Shown in pieces: positions 3,254-63,556 of a stretch of DNA of 64,000 nt (positions within the stretch are counted from its first letter, which is position 1; every line of letters begins with the position of its first letter). The position numbers and the translations under genes are program-made. Below the pieces are notes generated by a model. The model ran no database searches, had not been told where the DNA came from, and saw only the letters and a program-made list of their open reading frames with translations. Origin of the DNA: a phage; the sequence record OZ346175.1; one strand, 5' to 3'.

Positions 3254-3553
3254 TTAGTCTGCCAACCTTAAATTGAAATTAACACCAAATTTTTCACATA
3301 CTTCCAACATATACTCAAGTGAAACATTCCCAGTGAGGTGGATTATGTTGGATACACGAGCTTGAGAGATACCACAAATTTTAGCAACTTGCTCTTGAGA
3401 AAGACCTCTGGATTTAATCTCTCTCTTAAAACGATGTGCAACGAAGTCTCTCATTTCGTCTACATCCATTGGACAAATATAACTCTCCATTTCAGCCTCT
3501 CTATCAGCCTCCCAATCATCTTGTGGGGCATAAGGGTCAAAAACCTCATTCAT
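3254..3553 (-). CDS. helix-turn-helix (XRE/Cro-like) DNA-binding protein
   Basis: HTH-like segment LSQEQVAKICGISQARVSNI; start trimmed to internal Met (MNEVF) of ORF 3254..3583. Confidence 0.55.
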   Translation of the reverse strand: MNEVFDPYAPQDDWEADREAEMESYICPMDVDEMRDFVAHRFKREIKSRGLSQEQVAKICGISQARVSNIIHLTGNVSLEYMLEVCEKFGVNFNLRLAD

Positions 3554-3758
3554 CTTTCTTCTTCCGTTTGCGTGAAGTGTCAATCAATGAATCTATGTTT
3601 GTAGCTCTAACCTTTTCACGTTCATCGTTAAGATAATCATCAAGAGCCTTTTCAATCTGTGAATCATCTTGACAGATGACTGTAAAGACTGTAAAGCCAT
3701 CTGTATCATCAATTATCTTACCATAACCGCTTCTGGGATGTAACTTTTTAAGAGCCAT
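3546..3758 (-). CDS. hypothetical protein
   Basis: 70-aa ORF, basic C-terminus. Confidence 0.4.
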   Translation of the reverse strand: MALKKLHPRSGYGKIIDDTDGFTVFTVICQDDSQIEKALDDYLNDEREKVRATNIDSLIDTSRKRKKKDE

Positions 3759-4143
3759 ACCAAATACCTGTGCAGCTTCTGTTTTCTAAGAAATACTCAA
3801 CACCGTACATAGCTTTTTGCATCAAATCTTCTTTAAACTGGATACGATGATTTAGCATAGCCTGTACATCAATATCTTCATGGTGCTTCTCTTTAATGTT
3901 TGCAGATTGCAGGAAATACTCTGCAAGAACACGATACTGATAGTCAGTTACTTTATCAGTCATCTCTGTCAAAGACTCTTCAGAGATTGGTTTAAGTAGC
4001 TCACCATTAGCTAGAGCAACACCTTTAACAATCTGGCAAGTGTCTTCTGGAACACCTGATAAGTCCACATTTGGAAGTTCTGTTGCATTAACTGGTAAAT
4101 TCATTGCCATAACCATTGCAGCAGCTAATAAAACCTTTTTCAT
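3748..4143 (-). CDS. hypothetical secreted protein
   Basis: 131 aa with N-terminal signal-peptide-like segment MKKVLLAAAMVMAMNLPVNA. Confidence 0.5.
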   Translation of the reverse strand: MKKVLLAAAMVMAMNLPVNATELPNVDLSGVPEDTCQIVKGVALANGELLKPISEESLTEMTDKVTDYQYRVLAEYFLQSANIKEKHHEDIDVQAMLNHRIQFKEDLMQKAMYGVEYFLENRSCTGIWYGS

Positions 4144-53217: not shown

Positions 53218-53682
53218 TTACTTTGGATATACACTGTCAAGATAAATGTCAGCTTCCATTCTACGTCTGTTTTTCAGGCCGTTTGAAGTGACCTTCTTAC
53301 CTTTGACTGTGACCTTGTTCCACCACTGCATAGCTTCTGCACAACCAACCTTATTACCAGCATTGTGGCGCTTGATAAATGTGGAGTCCTGCATAGCCGT
53401 GATACCAATGTTGTATGTTTCACTTACAAGTGCATCAAACTCATTCTGAGAAGTTGGAACCTTGATAGCTTTGTTAACTGCTGCAACGAATTTTTCAACA
53501 TCTGCAAGAAGATACTGTTCAGCTTGTTCAGCCGTAATTTTCATACCCATCTTAACAGGCTTCCCACCAATACGGATTGTTCCATACCCAATTGTGGGGA
53601 TTCCAGCAGAATCTTCGTAAGCCTCTAGCTTAAGACCTTCAAAGAACTTAATAGCTTCTAAACCTTTTCTTGAGAGTTGCAT
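53218..53682 (-). CDS. T4-type lysozyme (glycoside hydrolase family 24-like endolysin)
   Basis: EGLKLEAYEDSAGIPTIGYG aligns with T4 lysozyme catalytic region. Confidence 0.8.
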   Translation of the reverse strand: MQLSRKGLEAIKFFEGLKLEAYEDSAGIPTIGYGTIRIGGKPVKMGMKITAEQAEQYLLADVEKFVAAVNKAIKVPTSQNEFDALVSETYNIGITAMQDSTFIKRHNAGNKVGCAEAMQWWNKVTVKGKKVTSNGLKNRRRMEADIYLDSVYPK

Positions 53683-54566
53683 TATGCCTCCCCTGCTGGA
53701 TTAACTGTAACTGTTGCCGCATTAGATGTTACAGAGCCGCCTGCACCAGTCACTACACAAGTGTAGCTTCCTGCATCAGCGGTTGTTGCACCTTCTTTGG
53801 TGTAAGTTGCAGTAGTTGCATCGAGGATGTCTTCCTCACCTTTCTTCCACTGGTAATCTGTCGCACCTGTTGCCACAACATTCAGCGTTAAGGTATCACC
53901 TTCAGTGATTTCTTGATTGGTTGGTTGCTGAGTGATTACCGGAAGTGCGTTCACAGTCACTGTTGCTGCATCTGAGGTAACACTTGTTCCACCCTCTCCA
54001 GATACAACACAAGTGTATGAACCAGCGTCAGAAGGTGCTACTGACTGTTTTGTGTAAGTTGCAGAATTGGCACTAGGGATATCCTCACCATCCTTCTTCC
54101 ACTGATATCCAGTGGCGTTAGTTGCTAGAATGCTTAGAGTAAGTGTGCCACCCTCATTGACTGTTTGACCTGTTGGTTGCTGAGTAATTGCTGGTGGCTT
54201 AATAGCATCCTTCAACTTAGCATTCAACATTGAGAACGGCTTAACTCTTGCCAACCATTCACAGTAAATTGTGTCAACATCTTTACCATTGATGATTGCA
54301 TACTGCAAATCCATGAAGAAATCAGCAGTTCTCATCTGTGCACCAACACTGTAAAGCAATTCATCACTAAATGGAACTTTGTAGTCTGGTTTGTAGTCAA
54401 ACTTCTCAACTTCTGCAATATCAGCTTCAGGCCAATATGAACTATAGGTAAGTGGTAAAATAGCCTCTTGATATGTTCTAAAATCATACCTCTTACCAGC
54501 CTTTACATTTGCAATGAAACCCTTCACAAACTCTTTGAAGTCTGGGTAAGTCTTTGCTTTAATCAT
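53682..54566 (-). CDS. hypothetical protein with two Ig-like domains
   Basis: N-terminal about 120 aa paralogous to next gene; two tandem Ig-like repeats (YQWKKDGEDI...AGSYTCVV). Confidence 0.55.
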   Translation of the reverse strand: MIKAKTYPDFKEFVKGFIANVKAGKRYDFRTYQEAILPLTYSSYWPEADIAEVEKFDYKPDYKVPFSDELLYSVGAQMRTADFFMDLQYAIINGKDVDTIYCEWLARVKPFSMLNAKLKDAIKPPAITQQPTGQTVNEGGTLTLSILATNATGYQWKKDGEDIPSANSATYTKQSVAPSDAGSYTCVVSGEGGTSVTSDAATVTVNALPVITQQPTNQEITEGDTLTLNVVATGATDYQWKKGEEDILDATTATYTKEGATTADAGSYTCVVTGAGGSVTSNAATVTVNPAGEA

Positions 54567-54934
54567 TTCTTTTTAGCCTCTAAATGTGCGTTTAGTCTAA
54601 AATAACCTTTGTGATGCGGAGATACATCACCAACAACAATACCTTTAACCTTATAGCCTTTACCAATTACATACTGGATATCCATAAGGAATCTTCCAAG
54701 TCCAACAATATGGAACATTGGATATAATAGGTTCTCAGAATCTGGAATATTGATTTCAGGTTTGTAGGTACGCTGTTCGATTGTTGGTGTAATATCTTCT
54801 TCAGGCCATTTGCTGAGTCTCCATGTCAAAGGTGTTGGGATAACATCATTAAGGTTGTACCTTTCACCATTTTGCACGGAATTGATATAGGATTGTAGGA
54901 AGCAATAAAAGTCTTTTGCACTCTTAGCTTTCAT
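54563..54934 (-). CDS. hypothetical protein (paralog of N-terminal domain of 53682..54566)
   Basis: Shares KAK..DF..YI..V..G.RY...PLT...WPE.DI...YKP...MDIQY.I pattern with downstream gene. Confidence 0.5.
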   Translation of the reverse strand: MKAKSAKDFYCFLQSYINSVQNGERYNLNDVIPTPLTWRLSKWPEEDITPTIEQRTYKPEINIPDSENLLYPMFHIVGLGRFLMDIQYVIGKGYKVKGIVVGDVSPHHKGYFRLNAHLEAKKK

Positions 54935-56191: not shown

Positions 56192-56563
56192 ATGAAAAAC
56201 AGAACAAACAAAGGCCAGTTTAAAAAAGGCCAGTCTGGAAACCCATCTGGAAGACCAAAAGGCTCTCGTAACAAAAGCTCACTCGTAAAAGCTCAACTGA
56301 CCATTGATAATTCTGCTGAGTTTGCTGCAAAGTTGTTTGAAGCGATTGTTACAAGGGATGCTGCTAAGCTTGCAGAGTTCGGTTTGACGACTGACGATGT
56401 AAACCTGAAGTCGATGATGGAAGCTGGTAAAACTATCATGACCCACTCAGCAGGTGAGATGAAAGCGATTGCAGCAGACACTAAGAAGACCCCTGATAAC
56501 GGTTGTCAAACCCAGACAGATAACAAACCAACGTTTTCTGCTGTAGCGACTCTCAAAAAATAA
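56192..56563 (+). CDS. hypothetical protein with GNPSGRPKG motif
   Basis: 123 aa; N-terminal KGQSGNPSGRPKGSRNK basic motif. Confidence 0.5.
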   Translation: MKNRTNKGQFKKGQSGNPSGRPKGSRNKSSLVKAQLTIDNSAEFAAKLFEAIVTRDAAKLAEFGLTTDDVNLKSMMEAGKTIMTHSAGEMKAIAADTKKTPDNGCQTQTDNKPTFSAVATLKK

Positions 56564-56645
56564 TTTTAAAAGGTGTTGACAGACTCTACAAAGTTGCTCT
56601 AAAGTCTGTCACATCAACAAACAAAATGAGAGAAGAGAGTAAAAT

Positions 56646-58061
56646 ATGAGCGAGTTATTTAAACATGCGCACCTTCATGCAGGTCGAACTGAAAATGGTG
56701 CTGTAAACCATACTTCATCAATGTCTGCTCTAGTAAACTTTTACAAAGCTGCTGGTTCAAGCCGTAGCAACGTAGAAATCTTACCAGACCTGTTCTACAA
56801 AGCTTTGCGTGAGGATGTTGATGTTGCAGTTCGTATTTTGCTTCATATGCGAGATGTACGAGAAGGTATGGGTGAGCGTAAAGCCTTCAGGACTGTTTTG
56901 CTTCAAGCAATTGAAGACAAAGTTTTAGAGTCTACGCAGGTTCTTCGCATTATGGATAAGATTGCAGAACTTGGTCGTTTTGATGACTTCAAAATCTTCG
57001 TAGGTACTCGTTTCGAGACAGATGCCTTCAAACATTTAGAAGCAGCATTACTAGACCCTGCAACAGAAGGTTTGGCGGCTAAGTGGTTACCACGAGTCAA
57101 ACCACGTCATAAGCAGTTTGTAAAACGTTTCTGCAAGTTTGCCAACTTGAGTGAGAAAGAGTACCGCACACTGTTGTCTGCACTATCTGATACAGTTGAG
57201 CAAAAAATCTCTGCTAATGAGTTTGGTAAGATTGACTACAGTAAGATTCCTTCACTTGCTGCTGCACGTTACCAAAAACTGTTTAACCGTAAAGATGGAG
57301 AGCGTTACAAAGCTTACATCGAGTCCTTATCAAAAGGTGAGACTAAGATTAACGCTGGTGCTGTTTACCCATACGATGTGATTAAATCTGTCAAGTATGG
57401 TAATGCAGATGTTGCTAATGAGCAGTGGAAAGCACTACCAAACTGGATGGCAGAAGGTGAAAACATCTTGTGTATGTCTGATGTATCAAGTTCAATGTCT
57501 TGGGTGAATTTTGGCTCCATTACTGCTCTGGATATTGGTGTATCACTTGCCTTGTATGTAGCAGAACGCAATACAGGTTGCTTTAAGAATGAGTTAATGG
57601 TTTATTCAACAAACCCTCACTTCATCGAACTGAGTGGTGATTTACGAAACCGTCATCGTCAGGTGATGCGACACGTTGAATATGGCTCAACTAACTTACA
57701 AGCAGCTTTTGACCGCATTCTTGAAACAGGTAAAAGAAACAACTTGACTCAGAAAGATATGCCAAGTAAGCTTATCATCTTCTCCGATATGGAGTTCAAT
57801 CAGGTTGATGGAGCTAACGGTCGTACAAACTTTGAAGCAATTCAGAGTAAGTACAAAAAAGCTGGATATGAGATGCCACAACTGGTATTCTGGTACTTAG
57901 CAAACCGTAATGGTACTTGCGAAGTATCTGTTAAGGATAACGGTGTAGCAATGGTATCAGGGTTCTCTCCAGCCACTTTAAAAGCTCTGCTTGGTGGTGA
58001 GAAGTTTGACCCAATCAGTGTAATGCTCAAAGCAGTAATGATTGACCGTTATATCTGGTAA
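56646..58061 (+). CDS. Ro60-like (TROVE + von Willebrand A) protein
   Basis: 471 aa; helical N-terminal region then vWA MIDAS DVSSSM in ILCMSDVSSSMSW, plus IIFSDMEF and C-terminal GFSPATL blocks matching recalled Ro60. Confidence 0.6.
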   Translation: MSELFKHAHLHAGRTENGAVNHTSSMSALVNFYKAAGSSRSNVEILPDLFYKALREDVDVAVRILLHMRDVREGMGERKAFRTVLLQAIEDKVLESTQVLRIMDKIAELGRFDDFKIFVGTRFETDAFKHLEAALLDPATEGLAAKWLPRVKPRHKQFVKRFCKFANLSEKEYRTLLSALSDTVEQKISANEFGKIDYSKIPSLAAARYQKLFNRKDGERYKAYIESLSKGETKINAGAVYPYDVIKSVKYGNADVANEQWKALPNWMAEGENILCMSDVSSSMSWVNFGSITALDIGVSLALYVAERNTGCFKNELMVYSTNPHFIELSGDLRNRHRQVMRHVEYGSTNLQAAFDRILETGKRNNLTQKDMPSKLIIFSDMEFNQVDGANGRTNFEAIQSKYKKAGYEMPQLVFWYLANRNGTCEVSVKDNGVAMVSGFSPATLKALLGGEKFDPISVMLKAVMIDRYIW

Positions 58062-58079
58062 AAAGTTTTAAAAAGGGTA

Positions 58080-58108
58080 TTGACAATGTGTTTAATACCC
58101 TTTAATAT
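58080..58108 (+). promoter_or_regulatory. sigma70-type promoter upstream of tRNA cluster
   Basis: TTGACA-N17-TAATAT; -35 sits inside inverted repeat aagggtatt...aataccctt. Confidence 0.5.
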
Positions 58109-58227
58109 GTTCTACATAGAAGCGAAATGAGAGCTTTTCTAAGATACTGAAAAATATTTTAAAAAAGTTCTTGACAATCACTAAAAAAATAATGTTAAAG
58201 TGGTTACATAGAGTTTGAAAAGTTTAT

Positions 58228-58304
58228 CTCTGTTTAGCTCAGCTTGGTAGAGCGTTCCGTTTGGGGCGGTAAGGCCGGAGGTTCAAGTCCTCCAACAGAG
58301 ACCA
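58228..58304 (+). tRNA. tRNA-Pro (anticodon TGG)
   Basis: Hand cloverleaf: acceptor ctctgtt/aacagag, anticodon loop ttTGGgg, T-arm ggagg-ttcaagt-cctcc, CCA encoded. Confidence 0.7.
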
Positions 58305-58311
58305 AATTAAT

Positions 58312-58389
58312 GTTCCAGTAGACAAAATGGTAAAGTCACCACTCTTTCAAAGTGGATATCTGAGGGTTCAAATCCCTTCTGGAACGCCA
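58312..58389 (+). tRNA. tRNA-Glu (anticodon TTC)
   Basis: Acceptor gttccag/ctggaac, anticodon stem ccact/agtgg, loop ctTTCaa, T-loop ttcaaat, CCA encoded. Confidence 0.6.
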
Positions 58390-58396
58390 GTTTTGA

Positions 58397-58469
58397 CAGA
58401 AGACCAATTACAGCAAACTTAATCTTATTCATCTGAAGGTAAATCGGACAAAGAAGAGATTTGGTCTGG
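58397..58469 (+). ncRNA. structured element A (cagaagacc...ggtctgg stem family)
   Basis: 5' cagaagaccaattacagcaa and 3' tggtctgg; stem agacca/tggtct; family member without tRNA-like module. Confidence 0.35.
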
Positions 58470-58480
58470 TCATTAAGAAT

Positions 58481-58557
58481 TGCGGGTATAGAGAAAGGGC
58501 GTCTCACATGTCTCATTAGCATGGTATCGGCAGGTTCGACTCCTGCACCCGCCTCCA
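58481..58557 (+). tRNA. tRNA-Met or Ile2 (anticodon CAT), non-canonical acceptor
   Basis: D-stem gaga/tctc, anticodon stem catgt/gcatg, loop ctCATta, T-arm gcagg-ttcgact-cctgc; acceptor pairing needs one mismatch. Confidence 0.5.
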
Positions 58558-58563
58558 AATTTG

Positions 58564-58624
58564 CAGAAGACCGTATTCAGCAACAAAATACTTTTTTGCG
58601 GATAAAAGAAAAAACACGGTCTGG
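58564..58624 (+). ncRNA. structured element B (cagaagacc...ggtctgg stem family)
   Basis: cagaagaccgtattcagcaa ... cggtctgg; stem agaccg/cggtct (compensatory relative to A). Confidence 0.35.
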
Positions 58625-58635
58625 CAATGTATTAA

Positions 58636-58712
58636 GGTTAGGAAGCACATAAGGTATGTGCGGTCGCCTGTTAAGCGAATGGCACAGGGTTCGAATCCCT
58701 GACTAACCGCCA
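58636..58712 (+). tRNA. tRNA-Asn (anticodon GTT)
   Basis: D-stem gcac/gtgc, anticodon loop ctGTTaa, T-arm caggg-ttcgaat-ccctg, CCA encoded; position 8 is A (atypical). Confidence 0.55.
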
Positions 58713-58720
58713 AATTAAAT

Positions 58721-58808
58721 GTGTCGTTATCCCGTAGATGGTAGCGGTGGGGACTGTAAATCCCTTGTCATTGAGACTCGGTAGGTTCGACTCCTACACG
58801 GCACACCA
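58721..58808 (+). tRNA. tRNA-Tyr (anticodon GTA)
   Basis: 88 nt with long variable arm; anticodon stem gggga/tccct, loop ctGTAaa; T-arm gtagg-ttcgact-cctac; CCA encoded. Confidence 0.7.
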
Positions 58809-58813
58809 ATAAA

Positions 58814-58890
58814 GGCTATGTAGTTTAACTGGAGAAAATACTCCCCTGTCACGGGAGATGATGTGAGTTCAAGTCTCATCGTAGCCGCCA
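58814..58890 (+). tRNA. tRNA-Asp (anticodon GTC)
   Basis: Acceptor ggctatg/cgtagcc, anticodon stem ctccc/gggag, loop ctGTCac, T-loop ttcaagt, CCA encoded. Confidence 0.75.
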
Positions 58891-58951
58891 ATTTTGAGAG
58901 GGCTATTTAGCCCCTCCCTTAAAGAGTTCTTACGAGTATTCTTTAAGGGAG

Positions 58952-59035
58952 CAGAAGACCAAATACAGCAAGAATGTATGAAATTTCAAGCCAATTTAAT
59001 TTTGAAAATTTAAAACTTGGTCTGGCTCAACAAAT
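58952..59035 (+). ncRNA. structured element C (cagaagacc...ggtctgg stem family)
   Basis: cagaagaccaaatacagcaa ... ttggtctgg; stem agaccaa/ttggtct. Confidence 0.35.
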
Positions 59036-59038
59036 TTA

Positions 59039-59170
59039 CAGAAGACCGTTTACAGCAAAACTTAAACAATCTATTTCTCCGGTAAAGAAAAGGCGAAGGT
59101 TCGATTCCTTCACTCGGCAGATGTCGAGTTGGTGTAATGGTAGCACTTAAGATGATAAACAACGGTCTGG
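59039..59170 (+). ncRNA. Y-RNA-like element D with circularly permuted tRNA-like module
   Basis: 8-bp closing stem agaccgtt/aacggtct; internally T-arm gaagg-ttcgatt-ccttc, acceptor-like stem actcggc-agat-gtcgagt closed by a loop, then D-arm gtg-taatggtag-cac. Confidence 0.5.
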
Positions 59171-59171
59171 T

Positions 59172-59315
59172 AATTATCTTTGTAGATAAGTTATTAAGCT
59201 TACCTGTGAGTATGCGACCACAAAGGGTGAAAGGGTAAATTCTAGATTTAAACCCAACAAGGCACATCGCTACAGACCTTAAGCAAGTCTGGGTAGCTTA
59301 TCTACAAAGATAATT
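59172..59315 (+). ncRNA. structured element closed by 19-bp perfect inverted repeat
   Basis: aattatctttgtagataag (59172-59190) exactly complementary to cttatctacaaagataatt (59297-59315); internal cagacc...gtctgg hairpin. Confidence 0.4.
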
Positions 59316-59319
59316 TAAT

Positions 59320-59395
59320 GGAAGTGTAGCAGAATGGTGATGCGGCAGACTTTTAATCTGACAGGCGATGGGTTCGAATCCCTCCACTTCTACCA
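59320..59395 (+). tRNA. tRNA-Lys (anticodon TTT)
   Basis: Acceptor ggaagtg/cacttct, anticodon loop ctTTTaa, T-loop ttcgaat (T-stem needs a bulge), CCA encoded. Confidence 0.55.
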
Positions 59396-59399
59396 ATAT

Positions 59400-59476
59400 G
59401 GTTCAGTCGCAGATAAGGTAATGCAAGGGTCTCATAAGCCCTATGAATGTTGGTTCGATTCCCATCTGAACCTCCA
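59400..59476 (+). tRNA. tRNA-Met (anticodon CAT)
   Basis: Acceptor ggttcag/ctgaacc, anticodon stem agggt/gccct, loop ctCATaa, T-loop ttcgatt, CCA encoded. Confidence 0.6.
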
Positions 59477-59477
59477 A

Positions 59478-59553
59478 GCTGGTATAGTTAAGAAGGTTAT
59501 AACACTCCCCTGATAAGGGAACATCGGTGGTTCGATTCCACCTACCAGTACCA
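59478..59553 (+). tRNA. tRNA-Ile (anticodon GAT)
   Basis: Acceptor gctggta/taccagt, D-stem gtta/taac, anticodon loop ctGATaa, T-arm ggtgg-ttcgatt-ccacc, CCA encoded. Confidence 0.75.
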
Positions 59554-59568
59554 ATTTCAATAAAGTTG

Positions 59569-59597
59569 TTGACATTGAGATGTGACTACTTTATAGT
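59569..59597 (+). promoter_or_regulatory. sigma70-type promoter internal to tRNA cluster
   Basis: TTGACA-N17-TATAGT. Confidence 0.5.
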
Positions 59598-59798
59598 AAC
59601 CTTAGTTTTCGTTGCGTAGCGTCTATTTTGCAAATTTAAAATAAATGCAAACGACAATGTTTTTCTGGCAGTAGCTTGATAGGCTAAACACCAGTGAGGT
59701 CTTCCAATCCCTCATCAAAGAATTTGGCGTACTCGCCCACGGTATGATTAATAAGGTGGGCATCTTTAAGGGCTTTCTAAGAGAGTCTTTAAAGATAA

Positions 59799-59876
59799 TG
59801 CACCCTTAGTTCAATTGGATAGAGCAACGGTCTTCTAAATCGTTAGTTACAGGTTCGAATCCTGTAGGGTGTACCA
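59799..59876 (+). tRNA. tRNA-Arg (anticodon TCT)
   Basis: Acceptor gcaccct/agggtgt, D-arm gttc-aattggata-gagc, anticodon stem acggt/atcgt, loop ctTCTaa, T-arm acagg-ttcgaat-cctgt, CCA encoded. Confidence 0.75.
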
Positions 59877-60018
59877 AATAGTTAGCAGATTACTTAGACG
59901 GCCTTAGCGGGTCTTCCTGTAGGGAGGTGGTCTGTATCTCATGTTTTCCAGAACATGTAAATAATCTGAGAAGAAGCTTGACAGTGTTGAGATAACAGGG
60001 TAAGCTTCGAATTATAAT

Positions 60019-60101
60019 ATGGGACGATGTTAAGACTCTAAGGCATGAGCAACGGCCTCCAAAACCGTTTCAAAGGGGTTCAACTCCTCCGTCCCATGCC
60101 A
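60019..60101 (+). tRNA. tRNA-like gene, probable Trp (anticodon CCA), atypical D region
   Basis: Acceptor atgggac/gtcccat, anticodon loop ctCCAaa, T-loop ttcaact, CCA encoded; D region about 7 nt longer than canonical. Confidence 0.45.
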
Positions 60102-60114
60102 AAGTCTTATTAGG

Positions 60115-60202
60115 GGTAGGTAGCGGCTAATGGCAGCCAAACAGTCTTGAAAACTGTTGCCACTGTAGAGATACGGTGAGGGTTCGACTCCTTTACTTAC
60201 CG
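60115..60202 (+). tRNA. tRNA-Ser (anticodon TGA)
   Basis: 88 nt with long variable arm; anticodon stem acagt/actgt, loop ctTGAaa; T-arm gaggg-ttcgact-ccttt; CCA not encoded. Confidence 0.7.
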
Positions 60203-60458
60203 CCTAATAAGATTTACTCCGTCCATGCTTGTTCGCATTGTCGGTTTATCCCTCGTGTATTGTCGTACACTGTCAAAGCACCTAGTAGGTGTCACGGAGA
60301 AGAGATAATATCAAGCTCTCCAAAGGTTCTAGTCACCGGATTAAACAAGACTATGCAAAGACCTATTTAGGTCTTTTTAGAGGGCTTCTAAGGTTATTAG
60401 TCGCTTGTTGTGGAACCTTGTTGCTCAGGTTCTTAGAAGTTCTCTAAAAAGATTTAAT

Positions 60459-60536
60459 GGGAGATTGACGGTAATTGGTAAACCTACCATCCTTAGAAGT
60501 TGGTGTTTGAGGGTTCGAATCCCTTGTCTCCTACCA
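60459..60536 (+). tRNA. tRNA with apparent anticodon TAG (Leu-type) on short-variable-arm scaffold
   Basis: Acceptor gggagat/gtctcct, anticodon loop ctTAGaa, T-arm gaggg-ttcgaat-ccctt, A73, CCA encoded; no long variable arm. Confidence 0.45.
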
Positions 60537-60543
60537 AATTAAT

Positions 60544-60619
60544 GCAGGTGTAGCAAAATGGTTATGCGGCTGACTCTTAATCAGTAAGACGATGGGTTCA
60601 ATTCCCTCCACCTGTACCA
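60544..60619 (+). tRNA. tRNA-Lys (anticodon CTT)
   Basis: Paralog of 59320..59395; acceptor gcaggtg/cacctgt, anticodon stem gctga/tcagt, loop ctCTTaa, T-loop ttcaatt, CCA encoded. Confidence 0.6.
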
Positions 60620-60625
60620 GACATC

Positions 60626-60702
60626 GGGGTCATAGTTTATATGGTTAAAATTCGAGTTTTGCAAACTTGGGAACTGAGTTCAATTCTCAGTGACTCCACC
60701 AA
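60626..60702 (+). tRNA. tRNA-Ala (anticodon TGC)
   Basis: Acceptor ggggtca/tgactcc, anticodon stem cgagt/acttg, loop ttTGCaa, T-arm ctgag-ttcaatt-ctcag, CCA encoded. Confidence 0.7.
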
Positions 60703-60708
60703 TTAGTG

Positions 60709-60781
60709 CATCCATAGTTTAAACGGGAAAATTACAGTCTTCCAAACTGAGGTTGAGGGTTCGATTCCCTCTGGATGCTCC
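60709..60781 (+). tRNA. tRNA-Gly (anticodon TCC)
   Basis: Acceptor gcatcca/tggatgc, anticodon loop ctTCCaa, T-arm gaggg-ttcgatt-ccctc. Confidence 0.65.
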
Positions 60782-60796
60782 AAATTAAGGTGTGAT

Positions 60797-61210
60797 ATGA
60801 AAATATGCAGTACTTGCAGAATACCAAAAGATGAAAGCTTATTCCATAAGAATAAGAACAAGAAAGATGGTCTTCAAAGTCAATGCAAAGACTGTGCAAG
60901 ACTTCGTGATGCAAAGAGTTATCAAGCAAATGATAAAAGGAAAGAGGCTATTAAAAGCACTCGTAACTTCAAGAGAGAGTATAACAAGACTCTAGCTAGA
61001 AGGTACAAAGCTTTATGCAAATGTCATATATGTGGTGAGAAAGAACCAGTTGCATTGGATTTACACCATACAGACCCTTCCCAGAAAGATTTGAATCCTG
61101 CATCACTTTATTCATACTCCACAAAAAGATTAAAAGATGAAATCAGAAAGTGCATTGTCTTGTGCGCTAACTGTCACAGAAAAGTACATGCTGGTATCAT
61201 AAAAGTTTAA
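60797..61210 (+). CDS. HNH endonuclease inside tRNA cluster
   Basis: 137 aa; zinc-binding Cys pairs and HNH motif (LDLHHTDP...CANCHRKVH); flanked by tRNA genes. Confidence 0.75.
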   Translation: MKICSTCRIPKDESLFHKNKNKKDGLQSQCKDCARLRDAKSYQANDKRKEAIKSTRNFKREYNKTLARRYKALCKCHICGEKEPVALDLHHTDPSQKDLNPASLYSYSTKRLKDEIRKCIVLCANCHRKVHAGIIKV

Positions 61211-61211
61211 T

Positions 61212-61288
61212 GCTGCTTTCGTATAATTGGCTATTACACATCCCTTGTAAGGATGGAAATGCAGGTTCAAGTCCTGTGAGCAGCACCA
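61212..61288 (+). tRNA. tRNA-Thr (anticodon TGT)
   Basis: Acceptor gctgctt/gagcagc, anticodon stem catcc/ggatg, loop ctTGTaa, T-arm gcagg-ttcaagt-cctgt, CCA encoded. Confidence 0.75.
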
Positions 61289-61292
61289 ATTC

Positions 61293-61379
61293 AGAGGTCA
61301 AGTGAAAGACCGCTTTGAGTCAACTGAAGACCGTAACAAATCCCACGGAGTTGAGTTAGCGGCACAACTCCAGACCTCT
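61293..61379 (+). ncRNA. structured element E between tRNA genes
   Basis: Closing stem agaggtc/gacctct; internal hairpin ggagttg-agttagcggca-caactcc; two gaagacc motifs. Confidence 0.35.
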
Positions 61380-61384
61380 TTCAT

Positions 61385-61459
61385 ACTCGCTTAGTTTATA
61401 TGGTAAAACATCACCCTTACAAGATGAAGAAAAAGGTTCAAGTCCTTTAGTGAGTACCA
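61385..61459 (+). tRNA. tRNA-Val (anticodon TAC)
   Basis: Acceptor actcgct/agtgagt, D-stem gttt/aaac, anticodon loop ctTACaa, T-arm aaagg-ttcaagt-ccttt, CCA encoded. Confidence 0.7.
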
Positions 61460-61460
61460 T

Positions 61461-61538
61461 GTTCCAGTATCCCAATTGGCAGAGGATGCAAGCTCAAACC
61501 TTGTATTAGTGACGGTTCGAATCCGTCTTGGAACACCA
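61461..61538 (+). tRNA. tRNA with apparent anticodon CAA (Leu-type) on short-variable-arm scaffold
   Basis: Acceptor gttccag/ttggaac, anticodon stem gcaag/cttgt, loop ctCAAac, T-arm gacgg-ttcgaat-ccgtc, A73, CCA encoded. Confidence 0.45.
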
Positions 61539-61543
61539 ATTTT

Positions 61544-61619
61544 GCAGGATTAGTTCAAATGGATAGAGCAACAGTCTACGAAGCTGTTAATAGGGGTTCG
61601 AATCCCTTATCCTGCGCCA
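61544..61619 (+). tRNA. tRNA-Arg (anticodon ACG)
   Basis: Acceptor gcaggat/atcctgc, D-arm gttc-aaatggata-gagc, anticodon stem acagt/gctgt, loop ctACGaa, T-loop ttcgaat, CCA encoded. Confidence 0.75.
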
Positions 61620-61638
61620 ATTTAAAGAGGCTATTTAG

Positions 61639-62196
61639 ATGAGATATTTGAAGTATGCTTCATGGATTTTTTTAGCTTTGTTAGAGCCATTTGCAGCAAT
61701 CTTAGCAGTTATCTTAGCACCTTTTGTAGTTCCATTCTACAGTGAGAAGAAAGGACACTTACCTTTCGGGTTCAGATGGATGGAGACATATGACAACCCA
61801 ATTGATGGTGATGAAGGTCACGTTAAAAGATGGGCTAATATTAGATGGATTGGTAAACTAGGTGTCTACATGCAAAGAGTCGGATGGCTCTGGAGAAACA
61901 AAGCTTATAACTTCTCTTACCATGTATTAGGAAGAGATGTAAGAGATGTTACTAAGTGGAAAGGTAATATCAACGTAAGTTCTGACCCCGAAGATAATCA
62001 GACAGGTTATCTCCTAATGTGGAACAGTAATGCTTGGGGATTATTCGCTTTTATCCCATCAATTAAAATCTTTGGTAAACAATTTTACTGGAGAATTTAT
62101 ATTGGATGGAAACTAAAAAGTGTTGTCCCAGAAGAAAGAGCATTCTCAAGGGAAAGAGTTATGTTGGCATTCTTTATTCATCCACTGAGAAAGTAA
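61639..62196 (+). CDS. hypothetical membrane protein
   Basis: 185 aa; hydrophobic N-terminus (WIFLALLEPFAAILAVILAPFVVPF), Trp-rich; embedded in tRNA cluster. Confidence 0.5.
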   Translation: MRYLKYASWIFLALLEPFAAILAVILAPFVVPFYSEKKGHLPFGFRWMETYDNPIDGDEGHVKRWANIRWIGKLGVYMQRVGWLWRNKAYNFSYHVLGRDVRDVTKWKGNINVSSDPEDNQTGYLLMWNSNAWGLFAFIPSIKIFGKQFYWRIYIGWKLKSVVPEERAFSRERVMLAFFIHPLRK

Positions 62197-62204
62197 AGAT
62201 TTAA

Positions 62205-62280
62205 AGGGGATTAGTTTACAAGGTTAAAACCTCGGTCTTTGAAATCGAAGAAGTTGGTTCAATTCCAACATCCCCCGCCA
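62205..62280 (+). tRNA. tRNA-Gln (anticodon TTG)
   Basis: Acceptor aggggat/atccccc with unpaired 1:72, anticodon stem tcggt/atcga, loop ctTTGaa, T-arm gttgg-ttcaatt-ccaac, CCA encoded. Confidence 0.65.
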
Positions 62281-62282
62281 AT

Positions 62283-62361
62283 GCTCCATTACTCCAATTG
62301 GCAGAGAGGCCAGACTTAAAATCTGTGTTATGTATCGGTTCGAATCCGATATGGAGTACCA
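62283..62361 (+). tRNA. tRNA with apparent anticodon TAA (Leu-type) on short-variable-arm scaffold
   Basis: Acceptor gctccat/atggagt, anticodon loop ctTAAaa, T-arm atcgg-ttcgaat-ccgat, A73, CCA encoded; variable region 7 nt. Confidence 0.45.
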
Positions 62362-62366
62362 AATTT

Positions 62367-62442
62367 AGCGGTATAGCATAACTGGCAATGCAGCAGCCTC
62401 TGAAGCTGTCCTATTAAGGTTCAAATCCTTATGCCGCTGCCA
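62367..62442 (+). tRNA. tRNA-Gln (anticodon CTG)
   Basis: Acceptor agcggta/tgccgct, D-stem gcat/atgc, anticodon stem gcagc/gctgt, loop ctCTGaa, T-arm taagg-ttcaaat-cctta, CCA encoded. Confidence 0.65.
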
Positions 62443-62473
62443 CTTCTAAGGATTCTTGCGAGAGTCCTTAAAT

Positions 62474-62549
62474 GTGGCCTTATCATAAACGGTAATGACC
62501 CATGCTGTGAACATGGTCTATACGGGTTCAAATCCCGTAGGTCACCCCA
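62474..62549 (+). tRNA. tRNA-His (anticodon GTG)
   Basis: Acceptor gtggcct/aggtcac, D-stem tcat/atga, anticodon stem ccatg/catgg, loop ctGTGaa, T-arm acggg-ttcaaat-cccgt, CCA encoded. Confidence 0.75.
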
Positions 62550-62554
62550 ATTTA

Positions 62555-62631
62555 TAGTCCAAGTAGCTTATATGGTTAAAGCGCGTGTCTGAAAAACATG
62601 AGAAGAGGGTTCAAATCCCACTGGACTACCA
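62555..62631 (+). tRNA. tRNA-Phe (anticodon GAA)
   Basis: Acceptor tagtcca/tggacta, D-stem gctt/aagc, anticodon stem cgtgt/acatg, loop ctGAAaa, T-loop ttcaaat; 3' end register ambiguous. Confidence 0.55.
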
Positions 62632-62647
62632 ATTTCAAAGGTGCTTA

Positions 62648-63382
62648 ATGAAAGAGATGACAGAACAAGGTAAGGAGATTTTTAATCTCTTAAAAACTGG
62701 TAAAGGGTTCTCTAACCCGCTTATTACTGGTGCAGCAGTTCTCGGTGGAACCGTAGCTGCTTCTACATCACTTGTAAGCTCTATTAGTTCTGTAACAGAC
62801 CCTACAATGAAAGAGAAACTTGTTGCTGCTGGACTTACAACAGTCCTTCTAAACAGCTTTACAACAAGCCTTACAAGCACTACAGCAACTACTAAAACTC
62901 TGACAGACTACGGTCAAAAATCTATTGATGAGTTTTCATCACGTATGCAGGTAGCAAAGGGGTATTCCAATGTTATGGGTGCAGCAGGAGAACAAGTTGG
63001 TTGTACACCATTCAGTGGTATCATGGGTGTTGCTACAGAGTATGGTCAAAAAGCTATTGACATGATGAACAGTACACTAGATAGTGTTAATGGTGTGTTA
63101 AGTGACTTACAAGATGCTATTGATAAGGGTCTTGATACTGTTTCTGATTTAGCTAACCAAGCTGTCAGTAAGATTAATGAAGGTATTTCAAAGATTACAG
63201 CTTATGCAGATGAAGTTGTGCAGATGATTGAAGAAGAAGCTGCCCCTATTGCAGAGTACCTTAAAACGAATATCAATGGGTTCTTAGCAGGTATCTTACC
63301 AGACTGGTTTGACGATGCTTGTAAAACTGGTGTGATTGACACTATTGCAACACCAGAAATGAAGAGCGCATTACAGAAATAA
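62648..63382 (+). CDS. hypothetical Ser/Thr-rich protein
   Basis: ORF 62585..63382 trimmed to MKEMTEQ to clear tRNA-Phe; Ser/Thr-rich low-complexity N-terminal half. Confidence 0.45.
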   Translation: MKEMTEQGKEIFNLLKTGKGFSNPLITGAAVLGGTVAASTSLVSSISSVTDPTMKEKLVAAGLTTVLLNSFTTSLTSTTATTKTLTDYGQKSIDEFSSRMQVAKGYSNVMGAAGEQVGCTPFSGIMGVATEYGQKAIDMMNSTLDSVNGVLSDLQDAIDKGLDTVSDLANQAVSKINEGISKITAYADEVVQMIEEEAAPIAEYLKTNINGFLAGILPDWFDDACKTGVIDTIATPEMKSALQK

Positions 63383-63383
63383 T

Positions 63384-63476
63384 GGAAGATTAACCCTAAA
63401 AGGTAAGGGAGCAGTTTGCTAAACTGCCAGTAGCTGAGAAATCGGTGTACCAGTTCAAGTCTGGTATCTTCCTCCA
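63384..63476 (+). tRNA. tRNA-Ser (anticodon GCT)
   Basis: 93 nt with 21-nt variable arm; acceptor ggaagat/atcttcc, D-stem ccc/ggg, anticodon stem gcagt/actgc, loop ttGCTaa, T-arm accag-ttcaagt-ctggt, CCA encoded. Confidence 0.75.
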
Positions 63477-63480
63477 ATTT

Positions 63481-63556
63481 GAATCCGTGACAGAAATGGA
63501 TATGTACCTGTCTGCAAAACAGGTTTATAAGGGTTCGAGTCCCTTCGGATTCTCCA
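63481..63556 (+). tRNA. tRNA-Cys (anticodon GCA)
   Basis: Acceptor gaatccg/cggattc, anticodon stem cctgt/acagg, loop ctGCAaa, T-loop ttcgagt, CCA encoded. Confidence 0.75.

What the first reader, a model, noticed from the sequence alone, without database searches (positions are those of the whole stretch)
56646..59320. Ro60-like (TROVE+vWA) gene followed by Y-RNA-like elements, one with a circularly permuted tRNA-like module
The 471-aa protein at 56646..58061 has a vWA MIDAS motif (DVSSSM) and flanking blocks that match recalled Ro60. Downstream, four elements (58397-58469, 58564-58624, 58952-59035, 59039-59170) share cagaagacc-N-t(t/a)acagcaa at the 5' end and ggtctgg at the 3' end. Their closing stems covary: agacca/tggtct, agaccg/cggtct, agaccaa/ttggtct, agaccgtt/aacggtct. 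Element D contains, in order, a T-arm (gaagg-ttcgatt-ccttc), an acceptor-like stem closed by a loop (actcggc-agat-gtcgagt) and a D-arm (gtg-taatggtag-cac), which is the arrangement described for bacterial YrlA RNAs that bind Ro60 orthologues. Several such elements interleaved with authentic tRNA genes next to a Ro60-like gene is not a standard phage annotation.
Basis: partly seen in the sequence, partly recalled or inferred. Interest (0 to 1): 0.9.

Follow-up and report, generated by a model that had tools for sequence, protein, structure and literature searches.

The report
Ro60-like phage protein with partner RNAs
A Felix O1-type phage encodes a ring-shaped RNA-binding protein of the Ro60 type and, next to it among its tRNA genes, four unannotated small RNAs. 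These RNAs belong to a previously undescribed, widespread RNA family that almost always sits beside this protein in phages and bacteria, and that looks strikingly like the "Class I" RNAs of social amoebae.

Summary

**RNAs.** Elements A to D share one platform: (A)AG + 5 bp, N-U, (A/U)CAGCAA, variable loop, 5 bp + CU, G.
- The platform recurs beside DUF2828 genes that are only 33-47% identical. In 75 viral loci a strict descriptor hits 60 times on the gene strand and once on the other.
- A covariance model trained on other loci gave 57 matches at E ≤0.01 on held-out loci. All lie on the gene strand, 98.5% of stem cells pair, and all 7 pairs show compensatory changes.
- In bacteria the order RNA, gene, RtcB recurs.
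- Element D carries a circularly permuted tRNA-like module, as YrlA RNAs do.

**Family membership.** The RNAs match no Rfam Y RNA or YrlA model. The only recurring Rfam match is Dictyostelium Class I RNA, below its threshold.

Binding and function are inferred.

The parts
56576..56605 (+). sigma-70-like promoter upstream of the Ro60-like gene (TTGACA-18-TAAAGT), inside an inverted repeat GACAGACT...AGTCTGTC
   Evidence: 10 of 12 matches; the inverted repeat is read from the sequence
56646..58061 (+). Ro60-like protein gene, 471 aa. N-terminal helical (HEAT-like) ring part is about residues 1-265. The vWA domain with MIDAS (D279-x-S281-x-S283, T349, D381) is about residues 270-455. Orthologue of Bas63 gp130.
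   Evidence: DUF2828 3e-28, DUF7788 1.7e-43; PHROG 850
58080..58108 (+). sigma-70-like promoter (TTGACA-17-TAATAT) at the head of the tRNA/RNA array, embedded in a 12-bp hairpin 58072-58103
58397..58470 (+). Element A, short form. Stem 58401-58407 / 58461-58467, motif ACAGCAA 58410-58416, 3' G 58468. Lies between tRNA-Glu and tRNA-Met.
   Evidence: model R1 29.9 bits, E 7.5e-4; RF01414 19.7 bits
58564..58625 (+). Element B, short form. Stem 58568-58574 / 58616-58622, motif UCAGCAA 58577-58583, 3' G 58623. Lies between tRNA-Met and tRNA-Asn.
   Evidence: R1 38.6 bits, E 5.8e-6; fold z -2.9; RF01414 26.7 bits
58952..59026 (+). Element C, short form. Stem 58956-58962 / 59017-59023, motif ACAGCAA 58965-58971, 3' G 59024.
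   Evidence: R1 30.1 bits, E 6.8e-4
59039..59171 (+). Element D, long form. 8-bp stem 59043-59050 / 59161-59168, motif ACAGCAA 59052-59058, 3' G 59169, carrying a tRNA-like module.
59074..59146 (+). Circularly permuted tRNA-like module inside D: anticodon-like hairpin 59074-59090, T arm 59095-59111, acceptor stem closed by tetraloop 59112-59129, U-G, D arm 59132-59146
   Evidence: (tRNA model 22.6 bits on anticodon arm to 3' acceptor); not called as a tRNA by ARAGORN
59172..59316 (+). Further unannotated structured RNA candidate: 24-bp closing stem and three inner hairpins. One inner hairpin (59272-59291, cAGAC-CUUAAGCAA-GUCUgg) looks like a miniature of the platform. Whether it belongs to the system is uncertain.
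   Evidence: MFE -48.3, z -5.5; conserved only in close relatives, with no covariation to test
58228..59553 (+). Nine flanking tRNA genes (Pro, Glu, Met, Asn, Tyr, Asp, Lys, Met, Ile) of the same transcription direction. Processing of these would release elements A-D.
   Evidence: no + strand terminator-like site between them; release by tRNA processing is inferred

Best explanation
The ORF encodes a divergent Ro60-type protein: a ring of helical repeats closed by a vWA/MIDAS domain. Elements A-D are its Y-RNA-like partner RNAs. They are transcribed with the tRNA array from the promoter at 58080 and are freed when RNase P and 3' processing cut out the neighbouring tRNAs. The protein recognises the invariant platform. 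That platform is a 7-bp terminal helix whose outer A-U and G-C pairs are nearly fixed, a 3' unpaired G, and the single-stranded U-(A/U)-CAGCAA that follows the 5' strand. The variable loop is cargo. It is short and A/U-rich in A-C, and a closed, permuted tRNA mimic in D. Cargo would tether or present other factors, such as tRNA-binding or RNA-repair enzymes, exonucleases, or tRNA-directed defence nucleases as a decoy. In bacteria the same RNA-protein pair sits in RtcB RNA-repair operons. In the phage it serves counter-defence and RNA-pool maintenance during infection, since the orthologue gp130 counters Ppl. SHOWN: the Ro60 fold; the existence, strand specificity and covariation of the RNA family; its tight linkage to the gene family; the RtcB context; and, from the literature, the gp130 phenotype. 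INFERRED: binding, processing, the cargo's role and the molecular target.
Against: No binding, expression or processing data exist for these RNAs. No Pfam TROVE match, and no Rfam Y_RNA or YrlA match even in a 151-nt search. The YrlA consensus stem is different. gp130 alone, expressed from a plasmid or from the T7 genome, rescues T7 on Ppl, so that activity does not need the phage RNAs. In several phages a 32-37-nt copy lies directly before the gene's ribosome-binding site, which fits a cis-regulatory role as well. Only 39 of 75 viral loci (descriptor) and 49 of 80 bacterial loci (R1) show a hit, although both detectors were built for short canonical forms. Folding energies of A, C and D alone are not exceptional (z -0.9 to -1.5).
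Confidence: 0.7

Rival explanations
1. The elements are cis-acting signals rather than trans-acting partner RNAs. They would be autoregulatory operators in the mRNA leader of the gene, and in this phage processing or stability determinants of the tRNA precursor. The protein may bind them, but only to control expression or maturation.
For: In L007, L012, L013, L032, L035, L053, L067 and L072 a minimal 32-56-nt copy ends 11-60 nt before the start codon, and its 3' CUG(A/G) runs into the Shine-Dalgarno sequence, e.g. L013 TAATTCTggaggtaaactATG. In bacterial loci most hits lie just upstream of the gene.
Against: In the window no copy precedes the gene. The four copies lie downstream of a separate promoter, between tRNAs. 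Copies are often tandem, 2-6 per locus, and carry elaborate modules such as tRNA mimics, which a simple operator does not need. The two roles are not exclusive. Ribosomal-protein-style autoregulation by mimicry of the true RNA partner would in fact support direct binding.
Confidence: 0.15
2. The RNAs act on their own, or with another host or phage protein, and are merely co-inherited with the DUF2828 gene. Examples would be decoys for tRNA-targeting nucleases, or small RNAs bound by an RRM or other protein. The Ro60-like protein would work without them.
For: gp130 alone transfers Ppl resistance to T7. In Dictyostelium the look-alike Class I RNAs are reported to bind an RRM protein, Rnp1A/CIBP (PMC7919456).
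Against: Same-strand adjacency persists from 98% down to 33% protein identity, in phages and in many bacterial phyla, within a few hundred nt. That is hard to explain without a direct functional link. Ro60-fold proteins are RNA-binding rings that in every studied case have adjacent partner RNAs.
Confidence: 0.1
3. The elements are decayed tRNA genes or repeats left by rearrangements and homing-endonuclease traffic in the tRNA array, with no function.
For: D contains tRNA-like arms. The tRNA arrays of these phages are mosaic: an HNH insertion is present in phage heid, and an HNH-like ORF lies at 60797.
Against: The platform is not tRNA-like. It is kept by compensatory changes across very distant genomes while the loops diverge freely. 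It occurs in loci without any tRNA gene, for example L014, L019, L026, L041, L052, L055, L057 and L071. It is strictly strand-specific.
Confidence: 0.03

Closest known systems
Ro60 / Y RNA ribonucleoproteins (animal Ro60; D. radiodurans Rsr-Yrn1; Salmonella Rsr-YrlA/YrlB in the rsr-yrlBA-rtcBA operon)
   Same: Ring of helical repeats plus a vWA/MIDAS domain. Small RNAs are encoded next to the gene, closed by a 5'/3' stem, and have a modular variable part. One RNA carries a T arm, closed acceptor hairpin, D arm tRNA mimic like YrlA. Bacterial versions sit next to RtcB.
   Different: 11-17% sequence identity and no Pfam TROVE hit; the family is DUF2828/DUF7788. The RNA platform (AG-stem, U-W-CAGCAA, CUG) is unrelated in sequence to the YrlA stem and to the bulged Ro-binding helix of animal Y RNAs. 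No Rfam Y_RNA or YrlA match. The regulator next to the bacterial operons is WYL-type rather than RtcR.
Phage Ro60 homologues with Y-RNA-like RNAs (Thermus phage phiLo phiRo60 with Yrl1/Yrl2; mycobacteriophages, CcrColossus, Bacillus phage G)
   Same: Phage-encoded Ro60-fold protein with adjacent small RNAs, proposed to serve counter-defence (PMC12135203). Structure match 9l5y/9kop.
   Different: Those proteins are canonical TROVE proteins, and their RNAs have the Y-RNA stem-bulge with a CGAA motif. In BFVD the canonical TROVE phage proteins match this model only at E 1e-8 to 1e-9, against 1e-19 to 1e-33 for DUF2828/DUF7788 proteins.
Bas63 (Escherichia phage JohannRWettstein) gp130
   Same: Direct orthologue: same genus, same position before the tRNA array, 471 aa, region 95% identical. 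Reported as structurally similar to Ro60 and as a counter of the Ppl defence, transferable to T7.
   Different: That preprint only guessed that 'some tRNA genes are possibly Y RNAs'. The actual elements lie between the tRNA genes and are not annotated. Two minus-strand 'hypothetical' CDS are drawn over them.
Dictyostelium Class I RNAs (Rfam RF01414)
   Same: Same layout and size: 5' G + 5 bp, 2-3 nt ending in U, ACAGCAA, a variable A/U-rich loop, 5 bp + C, then UG, with a median of 58 nt. 25 of 34 D. discoideum RNAs fit the phage descriptor without its outer A-U pair. RF01414 is the only non-tRNA Rfam family that repeatedly hits the phage elements, full length, at 19.7-28.9 bits.
   Different: Scores are below the gathering score of 41.5. 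The spacer is 3 nt in Dictyostelium and mostly 2 nt in the phage RNAs. The Dictyostelium genes are eukaryotic, with a DUSE promoter, and are reported as unique to dictyostelids and bound by the RRM protein Rnp1A. Whether dictyostelids have a DUF2828 protein could not be tested here.
SPFH/Band-7 module with a tRNA-like RNA, and Rot/TROVE module with Y RNAs, in RNA-repair operons (Burroughs and Aravind 2016, recalled from memory; the paper could not be opened)
   Same: A scaffold protein plus a cognate small RNA next to RNA ligases. Band_7, T4 Rnl1-type ligase and phosphoesterase genes lie near the gene in L162.
   Different: I could not check whether that survey counted DUF2828 as Rot/TROVE or saw this RNA.

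Membership tests
Ro60 / TROVE protein family | Sequence match to the TROVE domain (Pfam PF05731) | tested here: not met
   Pfam scan at E<=1 returns only DUF7788 and DUF2828. phmmer against PDB finds no Ro60. A family profile gives E 1.2 to human Ro60, in the MIDAS region only.
Ro60 / TROVE protein family | Fold: ring of antiparallel helical (HEAT-like) repeats closed by a vWA domain | tested here: met
Ro60 / TROVE protein family | vWA domain with MIDAS motif (DxSxS...T...D) | tested here: met
   D279, S281, S283, T349 and D381 are invariant in 35 homologues.
Ro60 / TROVE protein family | Binds Y RNAs on the ring surface and single-stranded RNA ends in the central hole | not testable with these tools
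   No binding data. Only the genomic linkage to a small RNA family is available.
Y RNA / YrlA (Rfam RF00019, RF02553) | Covariance-model score at or above the gathering score | tested here: not met
   No Y_RNA or YrlA hit on the elements at E<=10, even in a 151-nt search. The only YrlA hit in the window is a tRNA-His/tRNA-Phe pair at 17.3 bits.
Y RNA / YrlA (Rfam RF00019, RF02553) | 5' and 3' ends form a stem that carries the conserved protein-binding site, with a variable module beyond it | tested here: inconclusive
   A terminal stem with conserved flanking motif and a variable module is present. Its sequence differs from the YrlA consensus, and binding is unknown.
Y RNA / YrlA (Rfam RF00019, RF02553) | tRNA-like domain in the order T arm, acceptor-like stem-loop, D arm (YrlA; Chen 2014) | tested here: met
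   Met for element D only. The same order is seen in L006 9106, L073 7795 and L073 10484. Definition taken.
Y RNA / YrlA (Rfam RF00019, RF02553) | Encoded adjacent to a Ro60 orthologue | tested here: met
   Adjacent to a Ro60-fold gene in the window and in more than 100 other loci.
Dictyostelium Class I RNA (Rfam RF01414) | Covariance-model score at or above the gathering score (41.5 bits) | tested here: not met
   B 26.7, A 19.7 and D 12.8 bits. L014 28.9, L026 26.1 and L019 25.4 bits. None at gathering in 132 kb.
Dictyostelium Class I RNA (Rfam RF01414) | Short stem joining the 5' and 3' ends, conserved 5' G paired to the C of a 3' CUG(U), and about 60 nt length | tested here: met
   Phage RNAs read (A)G+5 bp ... 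5 bp+C-U-G, and short forms are 53-72 nt. Definition.
Dictyostelium Class I RNA (Rfam RF01414) | 11-nt motif CCUUACAGCAA directly after the 5' strand of the stem | tested here: inconclusive
   The phage consensus is N-U-(A/U)-CAGCAA. A and D have UUACAGCAA, C has AUACAGCAA and B has AUUCAGCAA. The spacer is one nt shorter than in Dictyostelium.
Dictyostelium Class I RNA (Rfam RF01414) | Dictyostelid gene with a DUSE promoter about 60 nt upstream | tested here: not met
   These are phage and bacterial loci. Here sigma-70-like promoters and tRNA co-transcription apply.
tRNA | Cloverleaf with open acceptor ends, detected by ARAGORN or by the Rfam tRNA model at gathering score | tested here: not met
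   No ARAGORN call in 58891-59319. The Rfam tRNA model gives 22.6 bits, below 29, as a partial match only. The acceptor stem is closed by a tetraloop.

The most novel reading that the evidence does not exclude
The AG-stem / U-W-CAGCAA / CUG RNAs are the cognate 'Y RNAs' of a second, sister family of Ro60-type proteins (DUF2828/DUF7788). This family spans phages, bacterial RtcB operons, giant viruses of protists and eukaryotes. The abundant Class I RNAs of dictyostelid amoebae, so far regarded as a dictyostelid invention with unclear biochemical function, would be the eukaryotic members of the same RNA family and would work with a DUF2828-type protein.
Probability: 0.3. Interest if true: 0.92.

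Novelty: new variant of a known kind. Interest (0 to 1): 0.82.

Why it matters
1. It supplies the missing RNA component for a phage counter-defence protein that already has a phenotype (Bas63 gp130 against Ppl). That makes the mechanism directly testable, with or without the RNAs.

2. It defines a widespread, easily recognised RNA family. The family is absent from Rfam 15, unannotated in more than 280 related phage records, and overlaid by spurious CDS in some. It marks DUF2828/DUF7788 proteins as RNA-binding Ro60 relatives in phages, in bacterial RtcB RNA-repair operons and in giant viruses.

3. Its modular design, one fixed platform with interchangeable cargo that includes closed, permuted tRNA mimics, extends the Y-RNA principle to a second protein family.

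4. The near-identity of the platform with Dictyostelium Class I RNAs gives a concrete protein candidate and evolutionary origin for an RNA class whose biochemical function is unclear.

Tried and rejected
- **Pfam, PHROG and PDB sequence searches.** None gave a TROVE or Ro60 hit. Similarity is visible only at the fold level.
- **Rfam scans of the elements.** None gave a Y_RNA or YrlA hit. I displayed the YrlA consensus through a chance hit on a tRNA pair, and its stem is different.
- **Rfam gathering-threshold scan of 11 related loci.** It returned only tRNAs and one group I intron.
- **Single-sequence folding energies.** Those of A, C and D are unremarkable, so the case rests on comparative data.
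- **Model R1.** It misses D and other long forms because it was trained on short forms.
- **Neighbour census in viral loci.** No consistent partner gene emerged. Only the bacterial loci show RtcB and WYL.
- **DUF2828 in Dictyostelium, not tested.** The afdb50 library was unavailable. The proteome files in the supplement of PMC7919456 are truncated and gave nothing. Avesson 2011 and Burroughs and Aravind 2016 are not held.
- **Literature searches.** DUF2828, DUF7788, PF11443 and UCP015417 returned only incidental mentions, mostly in plants.
- **Hairpin 59172-59316.** It has too little variation among relatives for a covariation test.
- **Readings rejected.** Decayed tRNA genes or repeats, and promoter or terminator signals, are contradicted by strand-specific compensatory changes in a helix and by occurrence in loci without tRNAs.
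Full report
**What the window is.** The region is 98.5% identical to Felix O1-type E. coli phages such as fjerdesal and typing phage 1. In all, 286 phage records match it, mostly Escherichia, Salmonella and Shigella Felixounavirus. ORF 56646..58061 (+, 471 aa) is followed by 26 tRNA genes, all on the + strand, from 58228 to 63556. GenBank records call the ORF 'hypothetical', 'vWFA protein' or 'RNA-binding protein'. None annotates anything between the tRNA genes except small, probably spurious, minus-strand CDS.

**Checking the observation.**
- The 20-nt pattern CAGAAGACCNNWTWCAGCAA occurs exactly four times, at 58397, 58564, 58952 and 59039. All four are on the + strand, against 0.23 expected by chance.
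- Each copy is closed downstream by GGTCTGG.
- The helices are AGACCAA/TTGGTCT (A and C) and AGACCGT/ACGGTCT (B and D, 8 bp in D), so two inner pairs covary inside the window.
- Element D folds into four hairpins:
  - an anticodon-like hairpin (59074-59090);
  - a T arm with loop UUCGAUU (59095-59111);
  - a 7-bp acceptor-like stem closed by AGAU (59112-59129);
  - after U-G, a D arm with loop UAAUGGUAG (59132-59146).
- The Rfam tRNA model aligns the anticodon arm, T arm and 3' acceptor strand at 22.6 bits, below its gathering score of 29. ARAGORN calls no tRNA there.
The recalled 'Ro60 sequence blocks' are not. There is no TROVE hit in Pfam, no Ro60 by phmmer, and only E 1.2 around the MIDAS motif with a family profile.

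**The protein.**
- Pfam gives DUF2828 (residues 171-264, 3e-28) and DUF7788 (residues 274-455, 1.7e-43). PHROG 850 'RNA-binding protein' matches at 1.7e-183.
- The family is large: 2968 hits among the candidates scored. It includes Vibrio, Yersinia and many uncultured phages.
- In 35 homologues down to 42% identity, D279, S281, S283, T349 and D381 are invariant, which is a full MIDAS motif.
- An AlphaFold2 model built on that alignment has pLDDT 88 and pTM 0.88.
- Foldseek against PDB puts ten Ro60/TROVE chains first at E about 1e-8 to 1e-7, aligned at full length with 11-17% identity. They come from Xenopus, human, D. radiodurans Rsr and Thermus phage phiLo. Everything after them is a vWA domain alone.
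- Against predicted viral structures, the best matches are DUF2828/DUF7788 proteins of phages at E 1e-19 to 1e-33. Giant viruses of protists also appear in that range and down to about 1e-4: Pithovirus, Cafeteria roenbergensis virus, ChoanoV1, Marseillevirus, Mimivirus-like and Bodo saltans virus. Canonical 'TROVE' or 'Ro-like' phage proteins come later, at 1e-8 to 1e-9.
- The protein therefore has the Ro60 architecture but belongs to a distinct sister family.

**The RNAs are a family tied to this gene.**
- I fetched 80 viral loci encoding homologues. Of these, 75 are only 38-47% identical to the window protein.
- ACAGCAA is 2.7 times more frequent on the gene strand: 159 occurrences against 59, with 57 expected per strand.
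- The occurrences cluster right next to the gene, often as tandem copies about 60 nt apart.
- All share one design: (A)AG + 5 bp, 2-3 nt ending in U, (A/U)CAGCAA, a variable loop, 5 bp + CU, then G.
- A strict descriptor of that design hits 60 times on the gene strand, once on the other strand and 0.35 times per shuffled replicate. It hits in 39 of the 75 loci, and most hits lie within 400 nt of the gene.
- The five inner pairs are almost purely Watson-Crick and use three to five pair types each.
- For a test without circularity, I built a covariance model (R1) from 12 short RNAs of loci L006-L045 and searched held-out sequence.
  - In L046-L080 plus the whole 64-kb window it finds 38 hits at E<=1, all on the gene strand and in 21 of 35 loci. 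In the window it finds exactly B (38.6 bits, E 5.8e-6), C (30.1) and A (29.9) and nothing else.
  - In 80 bacterial genome loci with 33-42% identical proteins (Clostridia, Chloroflexi, Bacteroidales, Spirochaetes, Izemoplasmatales and others) it finds 79 hits. Of these, 75 are on the gene strand, in 49 loci, mostly within 350 nt upstream of the gene.
  - On the 57 held-out hits at E<=0.01, 98.5% of stem cells pair and all seven pairs show double changes, including the outer A-U and G-C. The covariation score is 0.904, against 0.245 for shuffles (0 of 500 reach it) and at most 0.141 for slid partners.

**Platform and cargo.** The loops diverge freely, even between near-identical Felixounaviruses. 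Element A of L003 has a different loop from that of L001 and the window. The platform, by contrast, stays fixed. Across loci the same platform carries several kinds of loop:
- nothing but a 16-18-nt loop, in the 32-37-nt copies directly before the gene's ribosome-binding site in L007, L012, L013, L032, L035 and L053;
- A/U-rich loops of 25-45 nt, the common short form, as in A-C here;
- permuted tRNA-like modules in the order T arm, closed acceptor hairpin, D arm (window D, L006 9106, L073 7795, L073 10484);
- a normal-order tRNA-Thr-like body (L050 5734);
- two other recurrent modules.

This is the modular logic of Y RNAs. The T arm, acceptor stem-loop, D arm order is what Chen et al. 2014 describe for YrlA.

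**Context.**
- In the window a sigma-70-like promoter precedes the gene (56576). Another (58080) heads the tRNA/RNA array, and no + strand terminator-like site separates the elements from the tRNAs. Release of the RNAs by tRNA processing is therefore a reasonable inference.
- In bacterial loci the commonest neighbours are RtcB (10), WYL-domain proteins (7), RlaP (2) and RNA ligase (2) among 148 neighbours.
- L096, L121 and L142 show the gene followed by RtcB within about 100 nt on one strand, with an R1 hit upstream in L096 and L142.
- A viral contig has a T4 Rnl1-type ligase and a phosphoesterase flanking the gene.
- This mirrors the Salmonella rsr-yrlBA-rtcBA RNA-repair operon.
- Viral loci otherwise show no constant partner gene.

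**How it most likely works.**
- *Shown:* the Ro60 fold, a covarying RNA family, tight gene-RNA linkage, and an RNA-repair neighbourhood in bacteria.
- *From the literature:* the orthologue Bas63 gp130 (bas63_0130) is needed for normal plaques on a Ppl-carrying host. It also rescues T7 on that host when expressed alone (PMC11482910).
- *Inferred:* the protein binds the platform, and the cargo recruits or distracts tRNA-directed enzymes. The minimal leader copies let the protein repress its own mRNA by mimicry.
- The T7 rescue shows that at least the anti-Ppl effect does not require the phage RNAs. The RNAs may therefore tune or retarget the protein, as Y RNAs do for Ro60, rather than being obligatory.
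- I put 0.7 on the partner-RNA model, 0.15 on a purely cis-acting role, 0.1 on co-inheritance without binding, and about 0.03 on junk.

**Comparison with what is known.**
- By membership tests the protein fails TROVE by sequence but meets the Ro60 fold and MIDAS.
- The RNAs fail Rfam Y_RNA and YrlA, and their stem differs from the YrlA consensus.
- Phage Ro60 with Y-like RNAs is known for canonical TROVE proteins. In phiLo the RNAs carry a CGAA-motif bulge.
- The only Rfam family that repeatedly matches the elements, at full length, is RF01414, Dictyostelium Class I RNA. It scores 26.7, 19.7 and 12.8 bits on B, A and D, and 25.4-28.9 bits on three distant loci. All are below the gathering score of 41.5.
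- The published D. discoideum sequences read GTTGAC-CTT-ACAGCAA-loop-GTCAAC-TG and have a median length of 58 nt.
- 25 of 34 of them satisfy the phage descriptor without its outer A-U pair, with a 3-nt rather than a 2-nt spacer.
- Kjellin et al. report Class I RNAs as unique to dictyostelids, with the 5' G, the 3' CUGU and the 11-nt motif as the conserved parts.
- DUF2828 proteins are annotated in plants and in giant viruses of protists. I could not test Dictyostelium itself.

**Novelty and limits.**
- The Ro60 likeness of this very protein is published.
- The RNA family, its linkage to DUF2828/DUF7788 proteins, its platform-plus-cargo design and the Class I resemblance were not found in Rfam 15 or in the searchable literature.
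- Burroughs and Aravind 2016, which surveys Rot/TROVE modules in RNA-repair operons, could not be read. Prior mention there cannot be excluded.
- No expression or binding evidence exists for the RNAs.
- I file this as a new variant of a known kind: a Ro60/Y-RNA-type RNP with a sister protein family and a different RNA platform.

Noticed in passing
window 59172-59316 (+): Unannotated 145-nt structure directly after element D: a 24-bp closing stem and three inner hairpins, MFE -48.3 kcal/mol, z -5.5. It is present only in close Felixounaviruses (95-99% identical), so there was no covariation to test. One inner hairpin (59272-59291, cAGAC-CUUAAGCAA-GUCUgg) looks like a miniature of the A-D platform.
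   Followed up: partly
L081 (Bas63, MZ501086.1) 3516-3790, equivalent to window about 59010-59290: GenBank annotates two minus-strand 'hypothetical protein' CDS (bas63_0137 and bas63_0138) over elements C/D and the following hairpin. They are probably artefacts laid over RNA genes.
   Followed up: partly
window 59554-59799 (+): A strong sigma-70-like promoter (59569-59597, 11 of 12 matches) is followed by about 200 nt without a gene, between tRNA-Ile and tRNA-Arg. Rfam gives weak tmRNA_permuted (29.2 bits) and tmRNA (15.7 bits) matches, below threshold. This may be another small RNA.
   Followed up: no
L007 5276, L009 3133, L012 1265, L013 149, L032 5734; and L048 5486, L053 5479, L060 1714, L070 5458, L072 5714, L067 81: The same RNA platform carries two other recurrent cargo modules in unrelated phages. 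One contains ccuuucuggaggggaaagcaaaaacucgcc. The other is about 160 nt long. Their structure and function are unknown.
   Followed up: no
L007, L012, L013, L032, L035, L053 (32-37-nt copies ending 11-60 nt before the homologue's start codon): Minimal copies of the platform sit directly in front of the ribosome-binding site of the Ro60-like gene, e.g. TAATTCTggaggtaaactATG in L013. This suggests autoregulation of the mRNA by the protein.
   Followed up: partly
L096, L121, L142 and others among L082-L161: In bacterial genomes the homologue is followed by RtcB on the same strand and often preceded by a WYL-domain gene. RlaP and RNA ligases also occur. This appears to be an RNA-repair operon type parallel to rsr-yrlBA-rtcBA.
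   Followed up: partly
window 56192-56563 (+) and L006 5490-5855: A DUF5681 ORF lies directly upstream of the Ro60-like gene, both here and in a phage whose protein is 47% identical. It may be a conserved partner within this lineage.
   Followed up: no
window 53682-54566 (-), 54563-54934 (-): The 294-aa ORF has two tandem Ig-like domains (Ig_3 6e-23). Its N-terminal 120 aa resemble the neighbouring 123-aa ORF.
   Followed up: no
window 60797-61210 (+), 61639-62196 (+): Two protein genes are embedded in the tRNA array. One is a weak HNH-like ORF (17.4 bits, below Pfam's cut-off). The other is a DUF7338 protein (1.3e-61).
   Followed up: no
window 56578-56612 and 58072-58103: Both sigma-70-like promoters are embedded in inverted repeats: GACAGACT...AGTCTGTC around the gene's promoter, and a 12-bp hairpin around the -35 box of the array promoter. 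These could be operator or terminator-promoter overlaps.
   Followed up: no
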